From Parcubacteria group bacterium (lineage in GTDB: Bacteria; Patescibacteriota; Minisyncoccia; Moranbacterales; GCA-2747515), in contig JBAZXC010000007.1 of assembly GCA_041660065.1 (NCBI GenBank), forward strand, positions 1-46,976: 46,976 nt of DNA, given 5' to 3'. Under the pieces are notes generated by a model that had not been told where the DNA came from, made no database searches, and worked only from the letters and a program-made list of their open reading frames with translations. Positions within the stretch are counted from its first letter, which is position 1, and each line of letters starts with the position of its first letter. Made by a program: the position numbers and the translations under genes. Positions 4,247-44,588 of the stretch are shown here, one piece after another.

Positions 4247-5449
4247 ATGGAAAATACAAAGATCAAAATGATCGCAATAGGAACGCTTGCTATTGTGGCT
4301 TTTTTTGCCACCTATTTTTTTATCGCCCACAAAAATAACAAAGAAAATATCGCAAATCAATTCAAGCCAAATGGCGTTTCTCTCATTTCGCAAAACAACA
4401 ATGAATTTACACTAAACCTTGTATTTAATGGTGGAGACAAACCTGGCATTTCCAGTATCAGGTATGTTGCTCTCCTCTATAAAGTCAGTGACAATGGGGA
4501 GATTATGGGAGATTCTCCGATGGATACAAAGAGCTATGATGATCACATCATTATCGGCAAAAATGATGGAAAATCTATCACAAAAAACATATCATACGTT
4601 GCGCCGGATTATCTTGATGGAAAGTATGTACTGGTTGTGAATTATCTTGCAGAATCCGGTAATCAGATCGATTCTTTTATCGTGGGCAATGTCAATTTAC
4701 AAAGTCAAAACACCGGTTTTCTTGAGATCCTTCCAGATACATGTTTTCTCCAAGTAGAAGGAGAAGATCCAAATATCAATCACGCCAATGGACAAGGTGT
4801 TGATATCAAAAGGGACGAAAACATCATTGTCACCTGCACTGTAAAAAACCATTTTGATAAAGAAGTGACTACCAATGTAAAATTTAAAAACTTTTTTATC
4901 ACGCATGAATTAAACGAGTCTGTGGAGCAGGAAGGATTAACTTTCAGCACGGTTTCATTTGATGCAGATGTAACAAAAAACATTTCTCTCTCAATCGCAA
5001 AGGCACTTGTGCCACAAGCATATGATGTCGGTCTTTATCTCACGGATACTTCCGGCACACAGATCTCAAACATGGCATACTTTCACTATGTCATTGCAGG
5101 AGAAAGCGCACGCATTCTCAATGCAACACTGGACAGCGATCATTATGCGCAAAACACACCGATCACAGCAACGATATCCTATGGCGGTTCAGCGGACAAT
5201 TTTGATGGCGCACGACTCGGTGGCACAAAAAATGAAAAATTAACTGCAGAGATCGATGTGCGCAATCAAGCAGGTCAAAGTTGTCTGGCAGAAGAAAAGA
5301 TCACTGATCTCAGTACGGAAAAGATCGTTGATACAAATATTGTAATGAATGCAACAAGAGAATGTGCCAATCCTTTTATCGTGGCAACGATCCGCGGAAA
5401 GGATGGTGTAGTATTGGATACGAGAACATTTTTGCGTGATACTAAATAA
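4247..5449 (+). CDS. Hypothetical membrane-anchored extracytoplasmic protein (N-terminal TM, beta-rich)
   Basis: 400-aa ORF with signal-anchor IAIGTLAIVAFFATYFFIA. Extended -10 TGaTATAAT at 4212-4220. No recognisable family. Confidence 0.75.
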   Translation: MENTKIKMIAIGTLAIVAFFATYFFIAHKNNKENIANQFKPNGVSLISQNNNEFTLNLVFNGGDKPGISSIRYVALLYKVSDNGEIMGDSPMDTKSYDDHIIIGKNDGKSITKNISYVAPDYLDGKYVLVVNYLAESGNQIDSFIVGNVNLQSQNTGFLEILPDTCFLQVEGEDPNINHANGQGVDIKRDENIIVTCTVKNHFDKEVTTNVKFKNFFITHELNESVEQEGLTFSTVSFDADVTKNISLSIAKALVPQAYDVGLYLTDTSGTQISNMAYFHYVIAGESARILNATLDSDHYAQNTPITATISYGGSADNFDGARLGGTKNEKLTAEIDVRNQAGQSCLAEEKITDLSTEKIVDTNIVMNATRECANPFIVATIRGKDGVVLDTRTFLRDTK

Positions 5450-5453
5450 CTCT

Positions 5454-7289
5454 ATGACATACAAAAATATGATCATCAAAAAACAATGCAATATCTTTGG
5501 CGCAATATTATTTGTCAGTATTCTTTTTGTCGGAGTACTGATCGGCACAGAAAATGCGCGTGCATGGTGTACGGGCAATTATGAGGATCTCGGTTGGTGT
5601 GCCAGTGGAAATACGAAGCGCTTTTATTATGATGGAAGCAACCAATGTGTCAATGAACCGTGTGGTAACTGCAATTTCCCAAAATGCGGTACTGCAAATG
5701 GTGGAACATTTACAACTGCGCCCGTGGCCACCACTGCGAACTATGCTGCGACATGGGGACCTCAACCACTGTGTGGTGAATGGCGTAATGGTGCAAGTGC
5801 GGTTACGCTTGTTGGTTCTAAATGGAAGTGGACATGTCAAGCGAGCCCCTATAGTCTCAAAGTAATAAATTGTTCAGCGACAAAACCGCCACCAGTAGTT
5901 AATGGTGTGTGCGGGCCAGCAAATGGTGGTAGCTATCAAACACAACCAACATATGGTTTATGTGCAGCAGGGACTGTTATGGACATGGGAGTGGCTACAT
6001 TGTGGGATGGATGGTCTTGGTGGTGCAGTGGTTCGGGCGGGGGATCAAGTCAAGGGTGTGGTGCAGGCAAAATCACGGTAATGTGTGGCACCTTAAATGG
6101 GAGGACATATCTCGCAACTGATACAGCGTGGGGAACTGGTACGTTTTGTGGCGGAGGATATTCTATTCCCGCTTCTCCAGCATTCCCGGCACAAGGGGGT
6201 AGTACCGGGTGGCAGTGTACCGATGCAATGGGCTCTCAAGCGTGGTGTGTAGCATATCGTGCTTTACCTGTTGTATATACCTGTACGGGTACACCGCCAC
6301 AAGATGCTTTGAGATGTTCTGGCGATGACACAGGTCTTACAGCTAATACTGCATGGCAACAAGTGACATCGTGTACTGATGCGACAAAATGTGAATACAT
6401 GATGCCATCGTACTCTTGTACCGGTGGCAATCCACCACAAGGCGCAATGTGGTGTGCAGGCGATGACACAGGTCTTACAGCTAATACTGCATGGCAACAA
6501 GTGGCATCGTGTACTGATGCGACAAAATGTGAATATATCATGCCATCGTATTCTTGTACCGGTGGCAATCCACCGCAAGGTGCGATATGGTGCACAGATG
6601 ACAATGCAGGTCTCACAGCGGATACAGCATGGCAACAAGTGACATCGTGTACTGATGTGAGAAAATGTGAATACACGATGCCGTCATGTGGACCCGATAA
6701 CGGTGTATTAGTAAATAATCGACCGACCGATCCGGGGCTTTGTAGTGCGGATAGCACGTCAAGTGAGGTCACATTTGACGCAAGAGGTAATTGGCATTGG
6801 ACATGCACGCATACCAGCGTAGAATCAGGGTCGCTTGCGGTAAATTGTGAAGCGCCATCATGTCTTACAACTATGCCGGTCGATCTCCAGCCATACGTAT
6901 ATTTTAACTCTGATGGCAATCCAAATAATGCTGTGGCAACCGTCACGTGTCCAAATGTCTGCTGTGCTATTGATAGCAGTAACGGTGCAATAACTGTCTG
7001 TAATAGCGATCCTGCAGCAGGTCTGATCCCTGTATTTCCGGGAAGTCGTTCTTATCCTGCCGAATGCTGGTTTGACAATGACCACAATCGCACTAATGAC
7101 AGCAATGAGCCGAAAATATCATACCATCCGGGACGAACGATCAGCACGATGTGTACTGCACGTTCGTGCAGAAGTCAGGGGGAATGTCAGGCATTGCCAC
7201 AAGCGGCAAATACAGCACAGGCATGCAAAAGTACATGCAATTCTGATGCAGATTGTTCCAAGGGTCGCATGATCGAAACGCGACCGTAA
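5454..7289 (+). CDS. Secreted Cys-rich repeat protein (signal peptide, four CG-x-NG...W-x-W-x-C modules, three 46-aa tandem repeats, Cys-rich tail)
   Basis: Signal-like FGAILFVSILFVGVLIGTENARA. Cysteines are regularly spaced throughout. The listed ORF begins with GTG 5436 inside the upstream gene; ATG 5454 or 5469 is more likely. Confidence 0.8.
   Translation: MTYKNMIIKKQCNIFGAILFVSILFVGVLIGTENARAWCTGNYEDLGWCASGNTKRFYYDGSNQCVNEPCGNCNFPKCGTANGGTFTTAPVATTANYAATWGPQPLCGEWRNGASAVTLVGSKWKWTCQASPYSLKVINCSATKPPPVVNGVCGPANGGSYQTQPTYGLCAAGTVMDMGVATLWDGWSWWCSGSGGGSSQGCGAGKITVMCGTLNGRTYLATDTAWGTGTFCGGGYSIPASPAFPAQGGSTGWQCTDAMGSQAWCVAYRALPVVYTCTGTPPQDALRCSGDDTGLTANTAWQQVTSCTDATKCEYMMPSYSCTGGNPPQGAMWCAGDDTGLTANTAWQQVASCTDATKCEYIMPSYSCTGGNPPQGAIWCTDDNAGLTADTAWQQVTSCTDVRKCEYTMPSCGPDNGVLVNNRPTDPGLCSADSTSSEVTFDARGNWHWTCTHTSVESGSLAVNCEAPSCLTTMPVDLQPYVYFNSDGNPNNAVATVTCPNVCCAIDSSNGAITVCNSDPAAGLIPVFPGSRSYPAECWFDNDHNRTNDSNEPKISYHPGRTISTMCTARSCRSQGECQALPQAANTAQACKSTCNSDADCSKGRMIETRP
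6276..6686 (+). repeat. In-frame tandem repeat, 3 copies (135/138/138 bp), inside the Cys-rich protein gene
   Basis: Copies start at 6276, 6411 and 6549. The string ggcgatgacacaggtcttacagctaatactgcatggcaacaagtg recurs exactly 138 bp apart (6321 and 6459). Confidence 0.9.
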
Positions 7290-7488: not shown

Positions 7489-10218
7489 ATGATACAAAAA
7501 CAACAAAAAAAGATCTATGCATATACGGTGCAGGAGATTGCCAGTGAATTTCGCACGTCGGAACATCGTGGGCTTACTGCAGGAGAGGTGCAATTGCGAC
7601 TCAAGCAATATGGACGCAATCAACTTGCGCAAAAACGGAGTTGGAAATGGCTCGCATTGATTGTCAATCAGTTCAAAGATGCGCTCGTATGGATATTGCT
7701 TGTTGCTGCAATTCTGGCTTTTTTCTTTGGTGAAACGCGTGACGTGATCATCATTCTTATTATTGTGGGCATCAACGCAATTATTGGATTTTTACAAGAA
7801 TTCAAAGCGGAGAAGATTTTGGAAAGCATTACAAAGCTCACAACCGATCAGACACAAGTGATTCGTGACGGTAAAAAACAGGAGATCGATGCGCGTTTTC
7901 TCGTGCCAGGCGATGTGGTTTTTGTGTCGTCCGGTGATCGTGCGCCGGCGGATGGTTATCTCGTGGAGAGTTATGATCTCAAGGTGAACAGCTTTATTTT
8001 TACAGGAGAATCCAAGCCGGAGGCCAAATCTGTCAAAACGATTCATGGGGAAAATGTGGCGCTTGCCGATATCGACAATATGCTTTTTATGGGAGAGACG
8101 ATCACAACGGGAGAGGCGCGATATATTGTAACGGGGACGGGCATGCAAACGGAATTGGGGCGTATTGCACACTTGACCGGGGAGATCAAAGAAGCACCGA
8201 CACCGATGCAAAAGCAGATGCAAAGGCTCAGTAAAAATATTACGATTGTTGCTGTGTCGATTGGCACATGTGTGATGATCATCGGAAATTATTTTGAAAT
8301 GTCTGCATACCATAGTTTTCTTTTTGCACTGGCTTTGGCAGTATCTGTTGTGCCAGAGGGACTTCCGGCTGCTATTTCTGTGGCATTGTCACTTGGGATG
8401 AAGAGACTTCTTTCTGTCAAAGTTTTAGCCAAAAAATTAAGTGCTGTAGAAACACTCGGATCAGTATCGATCATTTGTACGGATAAAACGGGAACGATCA
8501 CAAAAAATGAGTTGACTGTGACACATATTGTGATCAATGGCCGCATGATCACAGTCAGTGGTACGGGATATAGTCCCGAGGGACATTTTTACATTGATAG
8601 CACTGTGGTCAATCCTGCTCAAGTGAAGAATTTGGAATTACTTTTTCGGATTGGTACATTGTGTAACGATGCAAACATCATACTGAAAGATGGCGTACGT
8701 ACAGTTGTGGGTGATCCGACAGAAGGAGCGATTGTTGTTGCGGGAGAGAAATATAATCCAAAAGAGAATTATTATAGCATCGGTGAAACAAAAATTACAG
8801 AGAATCCCTTCTCTTCTGATCGCATGCGCATGAGCGTGGTATACAAAAACCGTGACACGATGTCTTTTGTCAAAGGATCGCCAGATGTCATGATTGACTT
8901 GTGTGATTTTATTGTGCAAGATGATCAGGTTGTGCCATTTACAACAGAACAAAAAACGCGGATCAAGGAGTTGTATAATGCCATGTCTGCTGACGCATTG
9001 CGTGTCTTGGGATTTGCGTATCGCAATCTCAACGATGTCGACGCGCGACATTATCTTGATGAAGCGGAAAAGGGTTTGACGTGGACAGGTATGATGGCAA
9101 TGATCGATCCGCCACGAGCAGACGTTGCGCAAGCGGTGCAGGAATGCAAGGATTTGGGGATCAAGGTAATCATGATCACGGGAGATTATGAAATTACAGC
9201 ACGCGCAATCGCACGCAATATCGGACTGATTGACGGTGAGGGAACGTATGAGGTGATCAACGGTAAAATGTTGCATGAATTATCTGATCGTGATGTATAT
9301 AGCAAGGTAATGAAAAAGGATGTGATATTTGCGCGTATCGCTCCGGAGCAAAAGTTACGGATTGCAACAATTCTCAAAAATCATCATCAGGTGATTGCGA
9401 TGACGGGTGACGGTGTCAATGACGCACCGGCATTAAAGAAGGCGGATGTCGGTGTGGCAATGGGTATCATCGGTACGGATGTATCCAAACAGGCGGCAGA
9501 CATGATCCTTATGGACGACCGCTTCGCATCAATTGTTCACGGTGTGAAAGAAGGACGCACGATCTATCACAATTTGCGCAAATTTGTGCACTACGTCTTT
9601 ACGTCCAATGTGAGCGAGCTTTTTACAGTAATTATCGGTGTATTATTTCATTTGCCATCGCCGATTACGGCAATTCAAATTCTTGCGATTGATCTGGCAA
9701 CAGATATTTTTCCGTCATTTTCACTCAGTCTTGAGCCGGCGGAAGCACATCAAAGTGGAAAGGTTGCAAATTCCAAAGAATCGATCATCAGTTGGCAAGG
9801 GGTGCGACGACTGATCTATTTGGGAAGTATTATGGCAGTTGGTGCGGCTACTGCGTTTTATTGGTCAATGGTGCGCAGTGGGTGGGTCTATGGACAACCG
9901 TTTGATGAGAATAGTGAAGTATATGTGATGGCGACGACGGCAGCGTATGCGGTGCTTGCGATGTCACAGATGGCAAATCTCGTGCAATCACGCAGTGAGA
10001 CATTATCACCGTTTGCGCTGGGATTTTTCAAAAACAAATATGTGATTGGATCAATTGGCATCTCATTTGGCATCCTTCTCATGTTTATGTACGTGCCGTT
10101 TTTTCAGACATATCTCGGCATGCGTCCAATTGTATGGCAGGATTGGATTGTTGTAGTTGTCACAACTTTTGCCGTATATCTCTTTGAAAACATCCGTAAA
10201 GTGTGGTTTGTAAAATAA
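7489..10218 (+). CDS. Cation-transporting P-type ATPase (P2-type, Ca2+/Mg2+-like)
   Basis: Cation_ATPase_N-like start (GLTAGEVQLRLKQYGRNQL), TGES, phosphorylation motif ICTDKTGTIT, MITGD, GDGVNDAPALKKADVG, and 10 predicted TM segments. ATG 7489 is preferred to the TTG at 7453. Confidence 0.95.
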   Translation: MIQKQQKKIYAYTVQEIASEFRTSEHRGLTAGEVQLRLKQYGRNQLAQKRSWKWLALIVNQFKDALVWILLVAAILAFFFGETRDVIIILIIVGINAIIGFLQEFKAEKILESITKLTTDQTQVIRDGKKQEIDARFLVPGDVVFVSSGDRAPADGYLVESYDLKVNSFIFTGESKPEAKSVKTIHGENVALADIDNMLFMGETITTGEARYIVTGTGMQTELGRIAHLTGEIKEAPTPMQKQMQRLSKNITIVAVSIGTCVMIIGNYFEMSAYHSFLFALALAVSVVPEGLPAAISVALSLGMKRLLSVKVLAKKLSAVETLGSVSIICTDKTGTITKNELTVTHIVINGRMITVSGTGYSPEGHFYIDSTVVNPAQVKNLELLFRIGTLCNDANIILKDGVRTVVGDPTEGAIVVAGEKYNPKENYYSIGETKITENPFSSDRMRMSVVYKNRDTMSFVKGSPDVMIDLCDFIVQDDQVVPFTTEQKTRIKELYNAMSADALRVLGFAYRNLNDVDARHYLDEAEKGLTWTGMMAMIDPPRADVAQAVQECKDLGIKVIMITGDYEITARAIARNIGLIDGEGTYEVINGKMLHELSDRDVYSKVMKKDVIFARIAPEQKLRIATILKNHHQVIAMTGDGVNDAPALKKADVGVAMGIIGTDVSKQAADMILMDDRFASIVHGVKEGRTIYHNLRKFVHYVFTSNVSELFTVIIGVLFHLPSPITAIQILAIDLATDIFPSFSLSLEPAEAHQSGKVANSKESIISWQGVRRLIYLGSIMAVGAATAFYWSMVRSGWVYGQPFDENSEVYVMATTAAYAVLAMSQMANLVQSRSETLSPFALGFFKNKYVIGSIGISFGILLMFMYVPFFQTYLGMRPIVWQDWIVVVVTTFAVYLFENIRKVWFVK

Positions 10219-14878: not shown

Positions 14879-14965
14879 TGGTGCCTCGGGAGAGACTCGA
14901 ACTCTCACATCCTTGCGAATACTGGATTTTGAGTCCAGCGCGTCTACCAATTCCGCCACCGAGGC
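14879..14965 (-). tRNA. tRNA-Leu (anticodon CAA), class II with long variable arm, CCA encoded
   Basis: Minus-strand read: GCCTCGG TG GCG GAATTGGTAGA CGC G CTGGA CTCAAAA TCCAG TATTCGCAAGGATGT GAGAG TTCGAGT CTCTC CCGAGGC A CCA. All four stems pair. Confidence 0.95.
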
Positions 14966-14969
14966 ATAA

Positions 14970-15212
14970 TTATTTTATGTTTCGTTTTATCCACTCTTTG
15001 CCACAGCCACTTTTGAGAAACTTTTCTCGCAAACGTGCAGTCGGTCTATCGTTATACTTTTCTGTTAAAACAGTATTAAATGGTGCATACGGCCTTGTGG
15101 TTTTATTTTGTCCACAGTTGTGTTCCTCCATCCTTCGTTGGATATTATTTGTTATGCCAACATAAATATACGATTTTGTATTGCTGGAAATAACATAGAC
15201 GTAATATGCCAT
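14970..15212 (-). CDS. GIY-YIG nuclease family protein (small, YhbQ/URI-like)
   Basis: MAYYVYVISS..SYIYVGITNNIQRRMEEHN carries the GIY/YIG, Arg and Glu motifs. The stop codon lies 4 nt from the tRNA 5' end. The listed 100-aa ORF (to 15272) adds a translation of the tRNA fragment and the palindrome. Confidence 0.85.
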   Translation of the reverse strand: MAYYVYVISSNTKSYIYVGITNNIQRRMEEHNCGQNKTTRPYAPFNTVLTEKYNDRPTARLREKFLKSGCGKEWIKRNIK

Positions 15213-15226
15213 ATTGTTATAATATT

Positions 15227-15272
15227 GTCTACCAACCTGCCTGCCGGCAGGCAGGTTCCGCCACCGAGGCAT
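15227..15272 (-). repeat. Duplicated 5' fragment of tRNA-Leu (acceptor 5' strand plus D-arm), interrupted in the D-loop by the 20-bp palindrome
   Basis: Minus strand: AT GCCTCGGTGGCGGAA [CCTGCCTGCCGGCAGGCAGG] TTGGTAGAC. It is identical to tRNA positions 1-24 plus 2 upstream nt (14942-14967). Confidence 0.9.
15234..15257. repeat. Perfect 24-bp palindrome AACCTGCCTGCCGGCAGGCAGGTT (20-bp core at 15236-15255)
   Basis: Self-complementary. The core recurs at 21962-21981 and 28153-28172, and a split copy forms the outer arms of 28141-28185. Confidence 0.95.
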
Positions 15273-15285
15273 TTTATTGAGTTTA

Positions 15286-15322
15286 TAAAGTAGAAAGTAT
15301 AAAGTTTGTAAAGTAAATAGTG
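15286..15322 (+). repeat. AT-rich array of five approximately 7-nt units (T/G)AAAGT(A/T)
   Basis: TAAAGTA GAAAGTA TAAAGTT tg TAAAGTA AATAGTG. AGTAGAAAG here is complementary to CTTTCTACT at 15339-15347. Confidence 0.6.
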
Positions 15323-15324
15323 AG

Positions 15325-15361
15325 GTCTACATGTCTACCTTTCTACTCGTCTAGCAGTCTA
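15325..15361 (-). repeat. Array of five TAGAC-N3 units phased at exactly 8 nt (plus strand reads GTCTAC)
   Basis: Units start at 15325, 15333, 15341, 15349 and 15357: GTCTACAT GTCTACCT TTCTACTC GTCTAGCA GTCTA. The array abuts the putative parA -35. Confidence 0.85.
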
Positions 15362-15365
15362 ATTT

Positions 15366-15394
15366 TTGGAGTACTTGTGCTAGTATAGTATAAT
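15366..15394 (+). promoter_or_regulatory. Putative parA promoter
   Basis: TTGGAG-17 nt-TATAAT, about 60 nt upstream of the parA ATG. Confidence 0.45.
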
Positions 15395-15454
15395 TATTGT
15401 AGTAAATCAAGACGGGGTTTTTCCGTGTGGCTTTTTAATCTTAAATTACGTGTA

Positions 15455-16219
15455 ATGGCACAAATTATTTCATTTATCAATCAAAAAGGCGGAGTGGGCA
15501 AGACGACGAGTGCGGTCAATACGGCAAGTTATTTGGCGGACATGGGCAAGTTTGTCCTATTGGTGGATTTGGATCCGCAGGGCAATGCTTCATCAGGATT
15601 GGGGGTTGATCTGCGACAAGTGCAACATAGTCTATATTCCACAATGGTGGGTGGCGGTAATGTACGCGATGCGATCATCGGCGTGGGGATGGAAGGATTG
15701 AGTTTGATCCCGGCAACGGCAGATCTCGCCGGTGCAAATATCGATCTGGTGGAAATGGAAAATCGTGAGTTCCGTCTATATGATGTGCTCAGACAAATTC
15801 GCATGGATTATGATTATATCATCATTGACTCGCCGCCGAGCTTGGGACTTCTCACGATCAACGGTCTCGTGGCATCGGATAGTGTTATCATTCCCGTGCA
15901 AGCGGAATATTATGCGTTGGAAGGATTGGGGCAATTGCTCGAAACGATCCAATTGGTGCAAAATAATTTACAGCCACAATTGGATATCATGGGCGCGGTA
16001 ATCACGCTCTATGACAGGCGCAATCGTTTGGCGCGGCAAGTCGTGCGTGAGATGCGGCAACATTTCCCGGGGCGAGTTTTTGAAAGTATTATCCCGCGCA
16101 GTATTCGTCTGGCGGAAGCACCGAGCTTTGGGCAGTCGATCACGTTGTTTGATAATTTCAACAAAGGCGCAAAAGCGTACAAGGCTCTTGCGAAAGAAAT
16201 AATTGCATTAGAAAAATAA
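15455..16219 (+). CDS. parA: Chromosome partitioning ATPase ParA/Soj
   Basis: Deviant Walker A NQKGGVGKTT starts right after MAQIISFI; DLDPQGN and IIIDSPPSLG motifs. Confidence 0.95.
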   Translation: MAQIISFINQKGGVGKTTSAVNTASYLADMGKFVLLVDLDPQGNASSGLGVDLRQVQHSLYSTMVGGGNVRDAIIGVGMEGLSLIPATADLAGANIDLVEMENREFRLYDVLRQIRMDYDYIIIDSPPSLGLLTINGLVASDSVIIPVQAEYYALEGLGQLLETIQLVQNNLQPQLDIMGAVITLYDRRNRLARQVVREMRQHFPGRVFESIIPRSIRLAEAPSFGQSITLFDNFNKGAKAYKALAKEIIALEK

Positions 16220-16226
16220 AATTATT

Positions 16227-17195
16227 ATGATACAGCGGCATGGACTGGGCCGAGGACTTTCCTCACTGATCCCACAAAAAAACACATCATCACAGAACGA
16301 ACCGCAGAGGATCGCGTCACACAGTGTGCAGCCGACTTTTCGAACATCGCGTAATGATGGTGCATCTGCGTCGACACACAAACAAACAGAAGACCGTATT
16401 GATGATGATCGTGATTTTGTCAAAGACGTGCCGATCGGCATGGTGCGCGCCAATGCGCAACAACCGCGCATGTATTTTGATGAGGAGAAACTGGACGAGT
16501 TGGCACACTCGATCAAAACACATGGCGTCTTGCAACCGCTTATCGTGATTCACAAAGGAGATCATTACGAACTCATCGCCGGTGAACGTCGTTTGCGCGC
16601 ATCTAAAAAAGCGGGATGTGAAACTGTGCCGGTAATTATCAAACAGGACATCAATCTCGGCGATCAGAGGAAATTGGAGCTTGCGCTTATTGAGAATATT
16701 CAACGGCATGATCTCAATGTGATCGAAGAGGCAAAATCATATAATCGTCTTGCGGATGAGTTTGGCTTGTCTCAAGAAGAGATCGCTGTACGTTCCGGCA
16801 AAAGTCGACCGACGGTTGCCAATCGTATGCGACTGACAGGTTTGCCGATCGAAGTGCAAAAAGGATTGATCGCGGGGGAGATCACGGAAGGACATGCCAA
16901 AGTGATCCTCAGTCTCACGATGCCACAAAAACAGCTGGCACTCTATCACATGATCCTTGCGCAAAAACTTACCGTACGACAGGCGGAGGATAAAGCGCAT
17001 CTCGCTGAGCAAACAAAACATATGCGTAGAACCGGTGACAAAACACCGCATGCACGGCGACTGGAAGATCAATTGACGCGGTATTTTGGCACGCGTGTAC
17101 GTGTGAGTGAAAGCAATGGCGGAGGAAATATCACGGTATCATATTTTTCAGAAGAAGAATTAAAAAATATTCTCACACGTTTAAAATTAGTATAA
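16227..17195 (+). CDS. parB: Chromosome partitioning protein ParB/Spo0J
   Basis: GLGRGLSSLIP N-terminus, ParB box GERRLRASKKAG, LIENIQRHDLN, and an HTH segment. Confidence 0.93.
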   Translation: MIQRHGLGRGLSSLIPQKNTSSQNEPQRIASHSVQPTFRTSRNDGASASTHKQTEDRIDDDRDFVKDVPIGMVRANAQQPRMYFDEEKLDELAHSIKTHGVLQPLIVIHKGDHYELIAGERRLRASKKAGCETVPVIIKQDINLGDQRKLELALIENIQRHDLNVIEEAKSYNRLADEFGLSQEEIAVRSGKSRPTVANRMRLTGLPIEVQKGLIAGEITEGHAKVILSLTMPQKQLALYHMILAQKLTVRQAEDKAHLAEQTKHMRRTGDKTPHARRLEDQLTRYFGTRVRVSESNGGGNITVSYFSEEELKNILTRLKLV

Positions 17196-28140: not shown

Positions 28141-28185
28141 AACCTTGCCTACCCTGCCTACCGGCAGGCAGGCGGCAGGCAGGTT
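28141..28185. repeat. Self-nested palindrome: a 20-bp core inserted at the centre of another copy of the same palindrome
   Basis: AACCTTGCCTAC [CCTGCCTACCGGCAGGCAGG] CGGCAGGCAGGTT. Removing the bracketed 20 nt restores a 25-nt copy of the 15234-15257 palindrome. Confidence 0.9.
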
Positions 28186-36245: not shown

Positions 36246-36953
36246 ATGTCAATCATTTCAGTACCACAAGCATCACAATATACTGAAGGAAAAAACAATA
36301 CGGGAACAATAGAAATTCCCGCATGTTTTCCTGGGTATGGCACGACGCTTGGCAATGCAATCAGACGCGTTCTCCTGTCTTCTATCGAGGGTGCAGCGAT
36401 TACTTCCATAAAGATCAAGGGTGTATCGCACGAATTTTCGGCGATTGATGGTGTATTGGAAGATGTCGTCCAGATCATTTTGAATCTCAAACACGTGCGC
36501 TTTCATATGCATGGCGATGAAAAAATGACCGCAACAATAAAGGCGAAGGGAGAATGTTCTGTGACTGCGGCGGATATTGAAACATCTTCGGGACTTGAAG
36601 TGGTGGATGGCACACAGCATATTGCAACACTAACAGACAAAAAAGCGAGTCTTGAAATAGAGCTTGCAGTTGAAAAGGGTATCGGGTATGTACCATCGGA
36701 TCAGCATAGCGCTGATGAACGAGAAGTAGGTGCCATTATGATCGATGCTGTATATACACCGGTAAAACGGGTAAATTACAATGTGGAGAATATGCGTGTC
36801 GGAAAAAGAACGGATTATGAAAAAGTGACGCTGGAAATTGTAACAGATGGAAGTATTACACCACAAGAAGCCTTTGATCATGCCGTTGATATTCTCGTGG
36901 AACAGTTTAGCGTTTTATCGTCCGGCAATACGCAGGCGGTGATCGAAGAATAA
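36246..36953 (+). CDS. rpoA: DNA-directed RNA polymerase alpha subunit, N-terminal domain only (235 aa)
   Basis: GYGTTLGNAIRRVLLSSIEG and the dimerisation/insert domain are present. The ORF ends 19 nt before rplQ without a C-terminal domain. Confidence 0.9.
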   Translation: MSIISVPQASQYTEGKNNTGTIEIPACFPGYGTTLGNAIRRVLLSSIEGAAITSIKIKGVSHEFSAIDGVLEDVVQIILNLKHVRFHMHGDEKMTATIKAKGECSVTAADIETSSGLEVVDGTQHIATLTDKKASLEIELAVEKGIGYVPSDQHSADEREVGAIMIDAVYTPVKRVNYNVENMRVGKRTDYEKVTLEIVTDGSITPQEAFDHAVDILVEQFSVLSSGNTQAVIEE

Positions 36954-42279: not shown

Positions 42280-44283
42280 ATGATGAACAATGAACAAGGG
42301 GGTCAAGGACAAAAAGAAAACCCTCATCAAAAAAGTAGCGCGCGCAGACAAGCGAGCGTTGGCCATGCTGTGGTAAATCGTACAGCGCAAAAAAATGTAG
42401 AAAAAGTGCGTACCTCTTCCGCAAAGAAGAAAGGTACATACAAGAAAACACAATTTAAAAAGACTGCAGAGCAGAACAATGATAAAACTCCTGTGAAAAA
42501 GCAGAAGAAAAAACGGATGAATCGTATGCAGGGAGGACCAAAAACAAATGCAGAGAGAATTGTGTCGTCGACACAAAATAATGGAGAAAGAAAGAACACG
42601 CATGTCCCAAAAATCGAAAATGACACATTACGCATCATTCCACTTGGTGGACAGGAAGAAGTGGGTCGCAACATGGTGGTGTTTGAATATGGGAAAGATA
42701 TCGTGATCGTGGATATGGGCATGCAATTTCCGGAGGAGGATATGCCGGGCGTGGATTATATCGTACCAAACGCTAATTATCTCAAGGGGAAAGAACGCAA
42801 TATTCGTGGCGTGATCTTTACACATGGTCATTTGGATCATATCGGTGCTGCACCGATCGTACTCAAACAATTGGGATACCCGCCGGTGATCGCACGCGAT
42901 CTCACCTTGGCACTTATCAAGAAAAAAATGGAAGATTATGATCCGGGATCTGCGGAAAAGGTCCGTACGATCAGTGTAAAAAACATCGATCGAAAAATTC
43001 GTCTTGGAGAATTTGTGGCAAATTTCTTTGAAGTGGAGCACTCGATCATGGATTCGATGGGCGTTGCTCTTGTGACGCCTGTGGGTACGCCGATCCATTT
43101 GGGTGATTGGACGATCAGTCATGATCCTGTTGAAGGAGGGATTATTTCATATGAGCAATTGAGCAAATTTCCTGAACCGCGTATTTTGATGCTGGAGAGT
43201 CTGGGTTCGATCAAAACAGAATCACACAGTGAGAAGATCGTGCAGGGTAATTTGGAACAGCTTGTGCGCGAGTCAAAGGGTCGCATGATCATTGGTACAT
43301 TTGCATCACAGATCAAGAGGATCAAATTATTATTGCAATATGCGGAAAAAATTGGTCGCAAGGTGGCATTGGATGGGTATTCTATGCGTACAAATGTTGA
43401 AGTGGCACAGCAACTGGGCTATCTCAAAGTGCACAAGGATCTCCTTATCCCGATCAATGAGATCGAGCGTTATCCCGACCATAAAGTGATCGTTCTGTGT
43501 ACGGGCGCACAAGGAGAGCACAATGCTGTCTTGAATCGAATCGTTACCGGAAATCATCGATTTATCAAATTGAAAAAATCAGATACGATCGTGTTTTCAT
43601 CGTCGATCATTCCCGGCAATGAACGATCTATTCAGCGACTCAAGGATAATCTCTATCGGAAATGTGATCATGTGATCCATTCTGACATTATGGATATTCA
43701 CATGGGCGGTCATGCGACAGCAAAAGACATTCAATCTGTGATCAAAATGGTCAAACCGCAATATTTTATTCCGATCTATGCAAATTATTTTATGCTCAAA
43801 GAAGCGGCAAATCGTGCTGTGGAAGTAGGATTCTCTGAAAAAAGGATCGCGATTCTTGATAATGGAAGTATCATTGAGTTTAGCAAGAAGGGGTCACGGA
43901 TCCGTAAGGAAAAGGCTGATGCAAGTTACATCTTTATCGATGGACTGGGTGTCGGTGATATCGGGCATGTTGTGTTGCGTGATCGACAGATGCTTTCTGA
44001 GGATGGTATGTATGTGATCACGGTGCTGGTGGATAGCAAGACAAAAGAAGTGGTAGGTAATATGCAGATCACATCGCGTGGATTCATCTATGTAAAAGAT
44101 AACTTTGATCTCGTAAATGAAACCAAAGTGCATGTCAAAAAGGTGATCCAAAAATCCACAAGCAAAGACACAAAAATGGATTGGCGACAGGTGGAAAATG
44201 AGATTCGCGATCGTGTCGGTGAATACCTCTTTCAAAAAACACAGCGCCGTCCAATGGTGTTGCCTGTAGTGATCGAGGTGTAG
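42280..44283 (+). CDS. rnj: Ribonuclease J (metallo-beta-lactamase/beta-CASP) with a basic N-terminal extension of about 110 aa
   Basis: LRIIPLGGQEEVGRN, HGHLDHIG and the beta-CASP and C-terminal domains. The N-terminus is K/Q/N-rich. Confidence 0.93.
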   Translation: MMNNEQGGQGQKENPHQKSSARRQASVGHAVVNRTAQKNVEKVRTSSAKKKGTYKKTQFKKTAEQNNDKTPVKKQKKKRMNRMQGGPKTNAERIVSSTQNNGERKNTHVPKIENDTLRIIPLGGQEEVGRNMVVFEYGKDIVIVDMGMQFPEEDMPGVDYIVPNANYLKGKERNIRGVIFTHGHLDHIGAAPIVLKQLGYPPVIARDLTLALIKKKMEDYDPGSAEKVRTISVKNIDRKIRLGEFVANFFEVEHSIMDSMGVALVTPVGTPIHLGDWTISHDPVEGGIISYEQLSKFPEPRILMLESLGSIKTESHSEKIVQGNLEQLVRESKGRMIIGTFASQIKRIKLLLQYAEKIGRKVALDGYSMRTNVEVAQQLGYLKVHKDLLIPINEIERYPDHKVIVLCTGAQGEHNAVLNRIVTGNHRFIKLKKSDTIVFSSSIIPGNERSIQRLKDNLYRKCDHVIHSDIMDIHMGGHATAKDIQSVIKMVKPQYFIPIYANYFMLKEAANRAVEVGFSEKRIAILDNGSIIEFSKKGSRIRKEKADASYIFIDGLGVGDIGHVVLRDRQMLSEDGMYVITVLVDSKTKEVVGNMQITSRGFIYVKDNFDLVNETKVHVKKVIQKSTSKDTKMDWRQVENEIRDRVGEYLFQKTQRRPMVLPVVIEV

Positions 44284-44286
44284 GTT

Positions 44287-44335
44287 TAGATGAATAGACA
44301 TCTAGACCAGTAGACAAATTAGACAAGTAGATTTG
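44287..44335 (+). repeat. Array of six TAGA(C/T)-N3 units phased at 8 nt (one 9-nt step)
   Basis: TAGATGAA TAGACATC TAGACCAG TAGACAAAT TAGACAAG TAGATTTG. It starts 4 nt after the rnj stop codon. Confidence 0.85.
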
Positions 44336-44341
44336 CTGATA

Positions 44342-44382
44342 AAATATACTCCACGCCCATGTTGCGTGGAGTATATTTTTTT
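44342..44382 (+). terminator. Strong rho-independent terminator after rnj and the TAGAC array
   Basis: AAATATACTCCACGC-CCATGTT-GCGTGGAGTATATTT followed by TTTT. Confidence 0.85.
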
Positions 44383-44588
44383 ATACAAATATTGTGCTGT
44401 GTGGTATAATAAAAACAACAATTAGAGGCAATGATCTGCACATAGCATAAATGATTGTTTGCTCATGATGTGTGTGGAGTCGAATGGCAAAACTGGCGCA
44501 AGACCAAAGAGATTTTTTTTCGAAGAAAATAAAAATAAACCTAGTTAAATAGTTGCAAAACAAATTTAACGGGATAAAAAATAAAAAT

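What the first reader, a model, noticed from the sequence alone, without database searches (positions are those of the whole stretch)
15325..15361. Phased TAGAC-N3 array (5 units, exact 8-nt period) between the tRNA/GIY-YIG cassette and the parA promoter
The plus strand reads GTCTACAT GTCTACCT TTCTACTC GTCTAGCA GTCTA, with unit starts at 15325/33/41/49/57. This is the reverse complement of TAGAC-N3. The array ends 4 nt before the putative parA -35, which is an operator- or iteron-like position. On the minus strand it lies about 55 nt upstream of the duplicated tRNA fragment, whose homology breakpoint is also ...GGTAGAC. The same motif and phase recur at 44287-44335. An 8-nt period places successive sites on different helix faces. 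That is known for contiguous short-iteron binders (heptad-type operators of ribbon-helix-helix proteins) and for RNA-binding attenuation proteins that read spaced UAG triplets. No such protein can be assigned here.
Basis: seen in the sequence. Interest (0 to 1): 0.65.

Follow-up and report, generated by a model that had tools for sequence, protein, structure and literature searches.

The report
Phased TAGAC repeat arrays in Moranbacteria
Two short arrays of the word TAGAC, repeated every 8 bases with unrelated spacers, are real and under selection in this candidate-phyla-radiation bacterium and look like docking sites for an unidentified multi-subunit nucleic-acid-binding protein, but they occur only in a narrow lineage and their function is unproven.

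Summary
Array 1 (15325-15361, TAGAC on the minus strand, 5 units, exact 8-nt steps) and array 2 (44287-44332, plus strand, 6 units, one 9-nt step) are the only phased 4-mer arrays in 47 kb. TAGA is invariant in 11 of 11 units while the spacers are scrambled, which rules out a decaying microsatellite (P about 2e-13).

The organism is a Candidatus Moranbacteria (Patescibacteria). Array 1 is kept in a sister strain that lacks the GIY-YIG insert, so it is independent of that cassette. It is half-decayed in one related genome and absent from two others. Array 2 shows roughly the same distribution.

A bidirectional promoter conserved in five genomes places array 1 at +15 to +51 of the tRNA-Leu leader and at -40 to -76 of parA. 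Array 2 lies in the rnj 3' UTR, before its terminator. The one clear analogue found (L034, another Patescibacterium) lies in the rplJL leader. All three read UAGAC in the transcript sense.

I favour a multivalent platform for an oligomeric RNA-binding protein (0.35). A ribbon-helix-helix-type DNA operator of the ParG/MetJ kind, with an 8-bp period, is close behind (0.28). No binder is encoded in the window. This is a new variant of a known kind, of moderate interest.

The parts
15325..15361 (-). Array 1: five TAGA(C)-N3 units with exact 8-nt steps (TAGACTGC TAGACGAG TAGAAAGG TAGACATG TAGAC)
   Evidence: Units 2-5 are 32/32 identical in sister strain L206-L209.
44287..44332 (+). Array 2: six TAGA(C/T) units with steps of 8, 8, 8, 9 and 8 nt. 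It begins 3 nt after the rnj stop codon and ends 8 nt before the terminator stem.
15366..15394 (+). parA promoter (TTGGAG, 17 nt, TATAAT). Array 1 lies at about -40 to -76 relative to it.
   Evidence: Sequence. The block is conserved in the window, L206, L210, L213 and L272.
15382..15410 (-). Minus-strand promoter for tRNA-Leu (TTGATT, 17 nt, TATACT; TATAAT in relatives). Its -10 is back to back with the parA -10. Array 1 lies at about +15 to +51 of this transcript.
   Evidence: In L272 the tRNA begins 19 nt after this -10 and there is no room for another promoter. The block is conserved in A, B and the sister strain.
15285..15321 (+). Five TAnAAAG heptads (CUUUnUA in the leader sense) between array 1 and the 5' end of the tRNA. 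They are conserved in relatives, including the genome that lacks array 1.
14879..15269 (-). Downstream of array 1 on the minus strand: displaced tRNA-Leu 5' fragment with a GC palindrome (15227-15269), GIY-YIG ORF (14970-15212) and intact tRNA-Leu(CAA) (14879-14965). The cassette is absent from the sister strain.
15456..17195 (+). parA (15456-16219) and canonical parB (16227-17195).
42280..44283 (+). rnj (RNase J). Its stop codon is TAG. Array 2 lies in its 3' UTR.
44341..44385 (+). Intrinsic terminator of rnj: a 16-bp stem followed by a T run.
   Evidence: fold z-score -6.8.
44382..44410 (+). Promoter of the large surface-protein gene (TATACA, 17 nt, TGnTATAAT). Array 2 lies at about -85 to -130, with the terminator in between.

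Best explanation
The two arrays are cis-acting, strand-specific docking platforms for one unidentified, lineage-restricted, oligomeric sequence-specific protein. Each subunit reads one (U)AGA(C) word, and the 8-nt subunit spacing fixes the period. I favour binding to the transcripts.

Array 1 is the start of the tRNA-Leu leader; in this strain that leader is also the 5' UTR of the GIY-YIG ORF. Array 2 is the rnj 3' UTR just upstream of the terminator. Coating these purine-rich, unstructured segments would modulate processing, stability or 3'-end formation. Alternatively, the segments would titrate the protein, in the manner of TRAP or HutP targets or of CsrB-type sponges.

Shown here: the arrays, the constraint on the core, their distribution among relatives, and the conserved bidirectional promoter.

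Inferred: that the arrays are transcribed, that a protein binds, and what binding does.
For: - Core against spacers: TAGA 44/44 invariant while the spacers are near-random. These are the only two such arrays in 47 kb, with the same core and period.
- Transcription sense, array 1: the minus-strand promoter TTGAT(T/A)-17-TATA(A/C)T is conserved in five genomes. In L272 it is the only possible tRNA-Leu promoter. Array 1 therefore lies at +15 to +51 of that RNA, in the UAGAC sense.
- Transcription sense, array 2: it lies between the rnj stop codon and a strong terminator.
- Transcription sense, L034: the one clear analogue (5 units, all spacers different) sits in the rplJL leader, between a terminator-like hairpin and the rplJ ATG, again in the UAGAC sense.
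- Spacers are purine-rich on the TAGAC strand in both window arrays even though they lie on opposite genomic strands (21/28; 29/40 with L034; p 0.003-0.02). This is expected for an RNA kept single-stranded.
- A 9-nt step (array 2) and a 10-nt step (genome B) are tolerated.
- Rough co-variation of the two arrays. Window: 5 and 6 units. Sister: 4 intact units in array 1, but array 2 largely diverged. Genome B: both decayed. Genome A: both absent.
- Relative to the sister strain, the window has extra perfect units in both arrays, made by several substitutions towards TAGAC.
Against: - There are no RNA data. No RNA run holds the locus, so the transcription map rests on consensus promoters and terminators.
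- No candidate RNA-binding protein is encoded in the window.
- There is no Rfam match.
- No alternative pairing links array 2 to its terminator.
- A 5-nt spacer fits neither HutP nor TRAP.
- Sense orientation in three of three arrays has a 1 in 4 chance under a strand-blind model.
- Array 1 sits exactly where a DNA operator of parA would sit.
- The 126-nt block that is 125/126 identical to the sister strain could reflect promoter constraint or recent recombination rather than the array itself.
- Close relatives do without both arrays.
Confidence: 0.35

Rival explanations
1. Double-stranded DNA operator. A small cooperative DNA binder (ribbon-helix-helix or similar), one dimer per 8-bp unit, coats array 1. 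This would control the back-to-back tRNA-Leu and parA promoters: a roadblock at +15 to +51 of one, an upstream site at -40 to -76 of the other. Array 2 would be a second chromosomal site of the same protein.
For: - An 8-bp period with a 4-5-bp conserved core and free spacers is the architecture of the ParG boxes (ACTC plus 4-bp spacers) upstream of parFG (PMC3130281) and of MetJ metboxes (from memory).
- Array 1 ends 4 nt from the parA -35.
- Units 2-5 plus the promoter are 125/126 identical to the sister strain, against 78-92% elsewhere.
- The L034 array abuts a possible rplJ -10/-35 region.
- L072 shows that a TAGAC-N3 array can be a transcription-factor operator: it forms GTnTAnAC boxes beside a GntR/HutC gene.
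Against: - No RHH or other small DNA-binding gene is found among the 36 window ORFs scanned. The gene after parA is a canonical HTH ParB.
- Array 2 is separated from the next promoter by a terminator and sits in a 3' UTR.
- The 9-bp and 10-bp steps break the phase that cooperative DNA binding needs.
- The strand-specific purine bias of the spacers and the uniform sense orientation are left unexplained.
- The same promoter works in genomes A and L272 without any array.
Confidence: 0.28
2. Residue of octanucleotide slippage with no function of its own. The 8-nt period would come from an old microsatellite in fast-evolving leader and UTR DNA.
For: - Plain (TAGACNNN)n microsatellites are common in bacteria: at least 120 loci in species representatives, nearly all with identical units.
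- Both arrays are missing or decayed in related genomes.
- In the sister strain the rnj flank keeps an 8-nt period, but there ACAT is conserved rather than TAGA.
- The neighbouring leader also holds heptad repeats.
Against: - Neutral decay cannot leave 44/44 core positions intact beside spacers that are 48% diverged (P about 2e-13).
- The same core is kept in two unlinked arrays and in L034.
- TAG words are otherwise strongly avoided in this genome.
- Substitutions relative to the sister strain run towards the consensus in both arrays.
Confidence: 0.15
3. Centromere-like sites of the chromosome partition system. The arrays would replace or supplement parS near parAB, as in type Ib plasmid systems where the repeats upstream of parA act as both operator and centromere.
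For: - There is no canonical parS within 47 kb (0 matches at up to 3 mismatches), nor in the nearest Moranbacteria loci. By contrast, 34 of the more distant ParA loci carry an exact 14-bp parS core.
- One array is directly upstream of parA and the second is 29 kb away, which is a parS-like scatter.
- ParG precedent.
Against: - ParB here has the standard ParB_N, HTH and C-terminal domains, which read a 16-bp palindrome.
- Genome A has an 80% identical ParB and no arrays.
- The L034 array is at rplJL, not at a par locus.
- Orientation and purine bias are unexplained.
Confidence: 0.07
4. Three-frame stop-codon barrier. Because 8 mod 3 = 2, successive UAGs close all reading frames, halting ribosomes that read through or frameshift before they reach the terminator or a downstream gene.
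For: - The TAGs are in the sense strand in all three arrays.
- Array 2 starts 3 nt after the rnj TAG stop and provides in-frame TAGs at 44287, 44311 and 44320, plus TAGs in the other two frames.
Against: - It explains neither the invariant A at position 4, the C at position 5, nor the exact period.
- Array 1 begins about 15 nt after the transcription start, so no ribosome can arrive from upstream.
- In genome B it is AGAC that survives while the T of TAG is lost.
- Relatives manage without it.
Confidence: 0.04
5. Part or target of the GIY-YIG/tRNA mobile cassette: landing pad, footprint or end repeat.
For: - Proximity: array 1 lies 55 nt from the displaced tRNA fragment.
- The cassette junction in the tRNA lies right after TAGAC. 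In L127 an insertion lies after GGCAGAC.
Against: - Sister strains L206-L209 have array 1 with an intact, uninterrupted tRNA-Leu and no cassette.
- Array 2 and the L034 array have no GIY-YIG gene nearby.
- TAGAC in the tRNA is the conserved D-arm.
Confidence: 0.03

Closest known systems
ParG / parH-OF of plasmid TP228 (type Ib partition; PMC3130281)
   Same: Arrays of short boxes at a regular 8-bp period (4-bp ACTC box plus 4-bp spacer). One dimer binds per box with cooperative coating. The arrays lie directly upstream of a ParA-family gene and are tolerant of degenerate boxes.
   Different: - The core here is TAGA(C).
- The spacers are not AT-rich.
- All units are direct repeats.
- No RHH gene follows parA; a canonical ParB does.
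- The second array lies in a 3' UTR.
- The setting is chromosomal, in Patescibacteria.
MetJ repressor and tandem metboxes (AGACGTCT, 2-5 copies; established knowledge, recalled from memory, not checked here)
   Same: Exact 8-bp tandem period. AGAC and the TpA junction (..T|AGAC..) are the conserved positions here as well.
   Different: The second half of the metbox (GTC) is not conserved here. MetJ is a gammaproteobacterial protein. There are no met genes at either array.
Omega repressor heptads of pSM19035 (WATCACW, 7-bp period, upstream of the parA-like delta gene; from memory)
   Same: Contiguous sub-helical-turn repeats that serve as both operator and centromere of a ParA-type system.
   Different: The period is 7 bp, not 8. 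The core differs. Units occur in both orientations. The RHH gene is encoded in the same operon.
HutP and TRAP RNA targets (UAG-N4 x3 in two sets; 9-11 (G/U)AG with 2-3-nt spacers; from memory)
   Same: Regularly spaced UAG words in an untranslated transcript segment next to a terminator, read by a ring-shaped oligomer, with free spacers.
   Different: The spacer here is 5 nt and the conserved word is 4-5 nt long. No antiterminator pairing is predicted. No hutP or mtrB gene is seen in the window.
Plain octanucleotide microsatellites, (TAGACNNN)n with identical units
   Same: 8-nt period. This is a possible evolutionary origin of the arrays.
   Different: There the units are identical copies. 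Here every spacer differs while the core is invariant.

Membership tests
RHH operator/centromere arrays (ParG-parH/OF, MetJ metboxes, omega heptads) | Tandem short boxes at a fixed 7-8-bp period with a conserved 4-5-bp core | tested here: met
   Steps of 8, 8, 8, 8 and of 8, 8, 8, 9, 8. TAGA is invariant in 11/11 units.
RHH operator/centromere arrays (ParG-parH/OF, MetJ metboxes, omega heptads) | Cognate small RHH gene in the same operon or next to the array | tested here: not met
   Pfam scan of 36 window ORFs finds no RHH, MetJ, ParG or omega family. parA is followed by an HTH ParB. The rest of the genome was not available.
RHH operator/centromere arrays (ParG-parH/OF, MetJ metboxes, omega heptads) | Array overlaps or abuts the promoter it controls | tested here: inconclusive
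   Array 1 ends 4 nt from the parA -35. Array 2 is 50 nt from the next -35, with a terminator in between.
RHH operator/centromere arrays (ParG-parH/OF, MetJ metboxes, omega heptads) | Cooperative protein binding, one dimer per box | not testable with these tools
   Needs EMSA or footprinting.
UAG-repeat RNA targets of HutP/TRAP-type attenuation proteins | At least 3 regularly spaced (U/G)AG words in the sense strand of a transcript | tested here: inconclusive
   The arrays carry 5 and 6 UAGs. Sense orientation is inferred from conserved promoters and terminators. No RNA data exist.
UAG-repeat RNA targets of HutP/TRAP-type attenuation proteins | Spacer of 4 nt (HutP) or 2-3 nt (TRAP) | tested here: not met
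   UAG is followed by 5 nt, and by 6 nt once.
UAG-repeat RNA targets of HutP/TRAP-type attenuation proteins | Repeats overlap a terminator/antiterminator switch | tested here: not met
   Array 2 ends 8 nt before a 16-bp terminator stem, and the predicted fold shows no competing pairing. Array 1 has no terminator nearby.
UAG-repeat RNA targets of HutP/TRAP-type attenuation proteins | hutP or mtrB homologue in the genome | not testable with these tools
   None among the window ORFs.
ParB-parS chromosomal centromere | 16-bp palindrome TGTTNCACGTGAAACA | tested here: not met
   0 matches at up to 3 mismatches. The arrays are direct repeats.
Simple octanucleotide microsatellite | Head-to-tail copies of one unit, diverging evenly across positions | tested here: not met
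   All spacers differ and the core is invariant. TRF scores only 30-37.
GntR/HutC operator (GTnTAnAC) | 8-bp palindromic core with GT at positions 1-2 | tested here: not met
   GT precedes only the first unit of array 2 (GTTTAGAT). Compare L072, where it is present.
Rfam RNA families | Match to any curated covariance model | tested here: not met
   Only the tRNA reaches its gathering score. Nothing credible appears at E up to 5 around either array or in L034.

The most novel reading that the evidence does not exclude
Patescibacteria possess a so far undescribed ring- or filament-forming RNA-binding regulator. It would read UAGA(C) every 8 nt in the untranslated parts of RNA-metabolism and translation genes: the tRNA-Leu leader, the rnj 3' UTR and the rplJL leader. 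This would form a small post-transcriptional regulon, or sponge system, that is gained and lost between closely related genomes together with its sites.
Probability: 0.15. Interest if true: 0.75.

Novelty: new variant of a known kind. Interest (0 to 1): 0.45.

Why it matters
Candidate-phyla-radiation bacteria have tiny genomes, very few recognisable regulators and almost no experimentally defined cis-elements. These arrays carry a clean, strongly constrained signature: an invariant core, free spacers and a fixed period. They occur at three loci tied to RNA metabolism, translation and chromosome partition. That makes them a ready-made bait (DNA or RNA) for fishing out an unknown regulator. Their presence or absence among sequenced relatives also allows phylogenetic profiling for the cognate gene. 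If the binder acts on RNA, it would be a new member of the small class of proteins that read phased triplet or pentamer repeats. If it acts on DNA, it would be a chromosomal counterpart of the ParG/MetJ type of 8-bp operator beside a canonical parAB operon.

Tried and rejected
- **GTDB species genomes, four perfect units.** At least 120 loci were found and the scan was truncated. Nearly all are plain octamer microsatellites in Saprospiraceae, Anaerolineae, Prevotella and others, and are uninformative for this element. Only L034 resembles it.
- **Viral contigs, same pattern.** 58 loci were found, with one variable-spacer case of only 4 units. No lead came from it.
- **Metagenome scan with ParA.** The 80 loci (770 kb) are mostly only about 50% identical. 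None carries a TAGA array.
- **Canonical parS search.** None was found near parAB in this lineage.
- **Rfam, at gathering and at permissive thresholds.** Nothing was found.
- **RNA-seq runs.** None holds the locus, so transcription starts could not be mapped.
- **Literature string searches for TAGAC/GTCTA operators and for parS in Patescibacteria.** Nothing relevant was found.
- **Specific avoidance of TAGAC elsewhere in the genome.** Rejected. The depletion is explained by general TAG/CTA avoidance (22 observed against 20.7 expected under a maximal-order Markov model).
- **A -35-like (TTGACA-like) promoter role for the TAGACA units.** No suitably spaced -10 follows any unit.
- **Link to the GIY-YIG cassette.** Rejected because of the cassette-free sister strain.
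- **Origin or terminus of replication.** Rejected. GC skew is uniformly positive across the window.
- **Candidate binders in the window.** Pfam shows no DNA- or RNA-binding signature in the two unknown ORFs after parB (117-aa lipoprotein-like, 152 aa). I did not fold them.

Full report
**1. The observation**

- Array 1 spans 15325-15361. On the minus strand it reads TAGAC TGC TAGAC GAG TAGAA AGG TAGAC ATG TAGAC, with exact 8-nt steps.
- Array 2 spans 44287-44332. On the plus strand it reads TAGAT GAA TAGAC ATC TAGAC CAG TAGAC AAAT TAGAC AAG TAGAT, with one 9-nt step.

The statistics are clear.
- A three-unit pattern with up to 2 mismatches matches 5 times against 0.01 expected, and only in these two places.
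- A motif-blind scan for any 4-mer kept through at least 4 units at any period from 6 to 12 nt returns these two arrays and nothing else in 47 kb.
- TAGA is invariant in all 11 units, position 5 is C in 8, and the three spacer columns are close to random.
- Had the core diverged as the spacers have within each array (16 of 33), the chance of no change in 44 core positions is about 2e-13. A decaying microsatellite is therefore excluded.
- TAG/CTA-containing words are 3-30 fold depleted in this genome (CTAG 12 against 354 expected). TAGAC itself is no rarer than that general avoidance predicts (22 against 20.7 under a maximal-order Markov model).

**2. Context**

RNase J and ParB homologues name the organism as Candidatus Moranbacteria/Moraniibacteriota, in the Patescibacteria. 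GC content is 43%, the genetic code is standard, and GC skew is uniformly positive, so the window holds neither an origin nor a terminus.

Around array 1 the order is:
- bacA, folD and a cupin gene;
- tRNA-Leu(CAA) on the minus strand;
- a GIY-YIG ORF and a displaced tRNA 5' fragment;
- array 1;
- parA, parB, two unknown ORFs, and relA/spoT.

Array 2 starts 3 nt after the TAG stop of rnj and ends 8 nt before a 16-bp terminator stem. The promoter of a large surface-protein gene follows the terminator.

**3. Relatives**

- **Sister strain** (L206-L209; ParB 96-97% amino-acid identity, about 86-92% nucleotide identity in genes). It has an intact tRNA-Leu and no GIY-YIG insert. It keeps units 2-5 of array 1 letter for letter, while the first unit reads GTTTGCAT instead of GTCTACAT. 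The 126 nt from 15330 to 15455 (four units, the promoter block, the parA 5' UTR) are 125/126 identical, against 78-80% in other intergenic DNA and 85-92% in genes. The array is therefore independent of the cassette. The GGTAGAC at the cassette junction is just the D-arm of tRNA-Leu.
- **Genome B** (one NCBI contig, JBBQZC010000012.1; ParB 75%, RNase J 86%). Array 1 is half-decayed: GTCTACTT TTCTACTC, then a 2-nt insertion, then GTCTG and GTCTT. A vestige of array 2 remains: AAGAT TTG TAGAC AAG TGAC, before the terminator.
- **Genome A** (one ENA contig; ParB 80%, RNase J 88%). It lacks both arrays although the promoter block is conserved.
- **L272** (ParB 74%) lacks array 1. L203 and L205 lack array 2.
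- **Sister strain downstream of rnj.** Seen in four runs, the flank reads ATTGTACATGTAGACATTCGAACATGCTAG. The 8-nt period is kept, but ACAT is the constant part and only one or two TAGAC words are present.

Both arrays are thus best developed in the window, decayed in B and absent in A. In the sister strain only array 1 stays intact. Compared with the sister strain, the window has extra perfect units in both arrays, made by multiple substitutions towards the consensus. This pattern is what a lineage-restricted trans-acting factor would produce.

More distant ParA loci (770 kb) carry no such array.

**4. Wider distribution**

Four perfect units occur in at least 120 loci of species-representative genomes (the scan was truncated) and in 58 viral contigs. 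Almost all are plain octamer microsatellites with identical units.

The one clear analogue is L034, from another Patescibacterium. It has five TAGAC units with four unrelated spacers. They lie in the rplJ-rplL leader, downstream of a promoter, two CTAG-heptad blocks and a terminator-like hairpin, and 39 nt before the rplJ ATG.

L072 (Hyphomicrobiales) has a four-unit array that forms overlapping GTnTAnAC boxes beside a GntR/HutC gene. It shows that such arrays can be ordinary operators, but the GT is not conserved in the window.

**5. Transcription map (inferred)**

The conserved block right of array 1 holds two promoters with back-to-back -10 elements.
- Plus strand: TTGGAG-17-TATAAT, for parA.
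- Minus strand: TTGATT-17-TATACT (TATAAT in A, B and L272).

In L272 the tRNA-Leu gene begins 19 nt after the minus-strand -10 and there is no room for another promoter. This is therefore the tRNA-Leu promoter.

By homology, array 1 lies at about +15 to +51 of the tRNA-Leu leader, in the UAGAC sense, and at -40 to -76 of parA. Array 2 is in the rnj 3' UTR in the UAGAC sense, and the L034 array is in the rplJL leader in the UAGAC sense.

On the TAGAC strand the spacers are purine-rich. The count is 21 of 28 in the window and 29 of 40 with L034, giving p of 0.003-0.02 depending on the background used. This holds although the two window arrays lie on opposite genomic strands.

**6. Mechanism**

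A fixed period, a 4-5-nt invariant word and free spacers point to an oligomer that places one subunit per unit. Two readings remain.

*(a) RNA platform (favoured, 0.35).* This reading explains:
- the uniform sense orientation;
- the UTR and leader positions;
- the purine-rich, unstructured spacers;
- the tolerance of 9- and 10-nt steps;
- the nature of the loci (tRNA, RNase J, L10/L12).

The consequence would be control of processing, stability or 3'-end formation, or titration of the protein.

*(b) Double-stranded DNA operator of the RHH type (0.28).* An 8-bp period is exactly that of the ParG boxes upstream of parFG (PMC3130281) and of MetJ metboxes (from memory). Array 1 sits where an operator of parA would sit. 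But no RHH gene is nearby, array 2 is not promoter-proximal, and the strand-specific features go unexplained.

*Lesser rivals.* These are a functionless slippage remnant (0.15), a centromere-like site (0.07), a three-frame stop barrier (0.04) and part of the GIY-YIG cassette (0.03, essentially refuted).

Nothing here shows binding. There are no RNA data, no Rfam match and no candidate protein in the window.

**7. Comparison and verdict**

The element works like known phased-repeat binding arrays, but it fails membership of each named family on at least one tested feature:
- RHH systems: no cognate RHH gene;
- HutP/TRAP targets: spacer length and no terminator switch;
- parS: no palindrome;
- GntR boxes: no GT;
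- microsatellites: units are not identical.

It is a new variant of a known kind. It is real, constrained and restricted to a narrow lineage, with an unknown binder. Interest is moderate, at 0.45. Its main value is as a clean bait and a phylogenetic-profiling handle for finding a regulator in a phylum where almost none is characterised.

Noticed in passing
window 14970-15269: The GIY-YIG ORF (14970-15212, minus strand) and a displaced 5' fragment of tRNA-Leu are a recent insertion. The fragment carries the 20-nt palindrome CCTGCCTGCCGGCAGGCAGG. The sister strain L206-L209 has an uninterrupted tRNA-Leu with no insert. The flank 15270-15329 is only 78% identical to the sister strain, whereas the next 126 nt are 99% identical.
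   Followed up: partly
window 28142-28183; L122 12413; L127 about 9770-9900: The same GC-rich palindrome family (GCCTGCCGGCAGGC) recurs after the pgk-like gene in the window and in other CPR loci. In L127 it is again inserted in the D-arm region of tRNA-Leu next to a GIY-YIG-type element. This looks like a small mobile hairpin element.
   Followed up: no
window 15366-15410: There is a bidirectional promoter with back-to-back -10 elements: parA on the plus strand and tRNA-Leu on the minus strand. It is conserved in five Moranbacteria genomes. The tRNA-Leu(-)/parA(+) synteny extends to more distant CPR relatives (L122, L124, L129, L130).
   Followed up: yes
window 15285-15321: Five TAnAAAG heptads (CUUUnUA in the tRNA-leader sense) are conserved in relatives, including the genome that lacks array 1. 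They are absent from L272. The heptad GTAGAAAG is the inverted repeat of array unit 3 (CTTTCTAC). Function unknown.
   Followed up: partly
window 36246-36953: RpoA is only 235 aa, with the N-terminal and insert domains but no alpha C-terminal domain by Pfam. The three closest relatives sampled at this locus (L202-L204) have the same 235-aa protein. UP-element and class I activation through alpha-CTD may therefore be absent in this lineage.
   Followed up: no
window, whole; L202-L213: No canonical parS (TGTTNCACGTGAAACA, up to 3 mismatches) lies within 47 kb around parAB or in the nearest Moranbacteria loci. By contrast, 34 of the more distant ParA loci carry exact 14-bp parS cores. The parS of this lineage is either elsewhere or divergent.
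   Followed up: partly
window, whole: CTAG is extremely depleted (12 against 354 expected), as are all TAG/CTA words. GCAGC/GCTGC is the most under-represented pentamer under a maximal-order Markov model (20 against 60), which hints at a restriction system with that specificity.
   Followed up: no
window 15412-15436: A terminator-like hairpin with a T run (ACGGGGTTTTTCCGT GTGGCTTTTT) lies in the parA 5' UTR between the promoter and the start codon. It is identical in the sister strain but not conserved in genomes A and B. It may be an attenuator.
   Followed up: no
L034 3100-3200: The rplJL leader of another Patescibacterium holds two roughly 30-nt blocks of CTAG heptads (CTAGATG CTAGATA CTAGCCC CTAGCCG) about 65 nt apart. 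In other words, UAG-N4 repeats occur in two sets, the arrangement known for HutP targets. They lie upstream of a terminator-like hairpin and the TAGAC array.
   Followed up: no
L125 109-143; L123 6612-6646: In two CPR relatives, heptad arrays AUUCUAA x3-4 (L125) and AUACUAA x5 (L123) lie immediately upstream of the parA and parB start codons respectively. They share the core CUAA and are in the mRNA sense.
   Followed up: no
L035, L044, L071, L075, L079 (Anaerolineae/Chloroflexota): Octamer arrays (GTAGACAN)n are followed directly by the inverted array. Together they form long imperfect palindromes built of 8-nt units. One Saprospiraceae MAG and one Prevotella MAG each carry many such arrays.
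   Followed up: no
window 6321-6682: A 138-bp tandem repeat (2.6 copies, 88% identity) lies inside the 617-aa ORF 5436-7289, which has no Pfam family.
   Followed up: no
window 44284 onward, compared with runs X3-X6: The gene order downstream of rnj differs among close relatives: a surface-protein gene in the window, A and B; trpS in L203 and, after two interposed genes, in L205; other sequence in the sister strain. The rnj 3' end is therefore a recombination breakpoint.
   Followed up: partly
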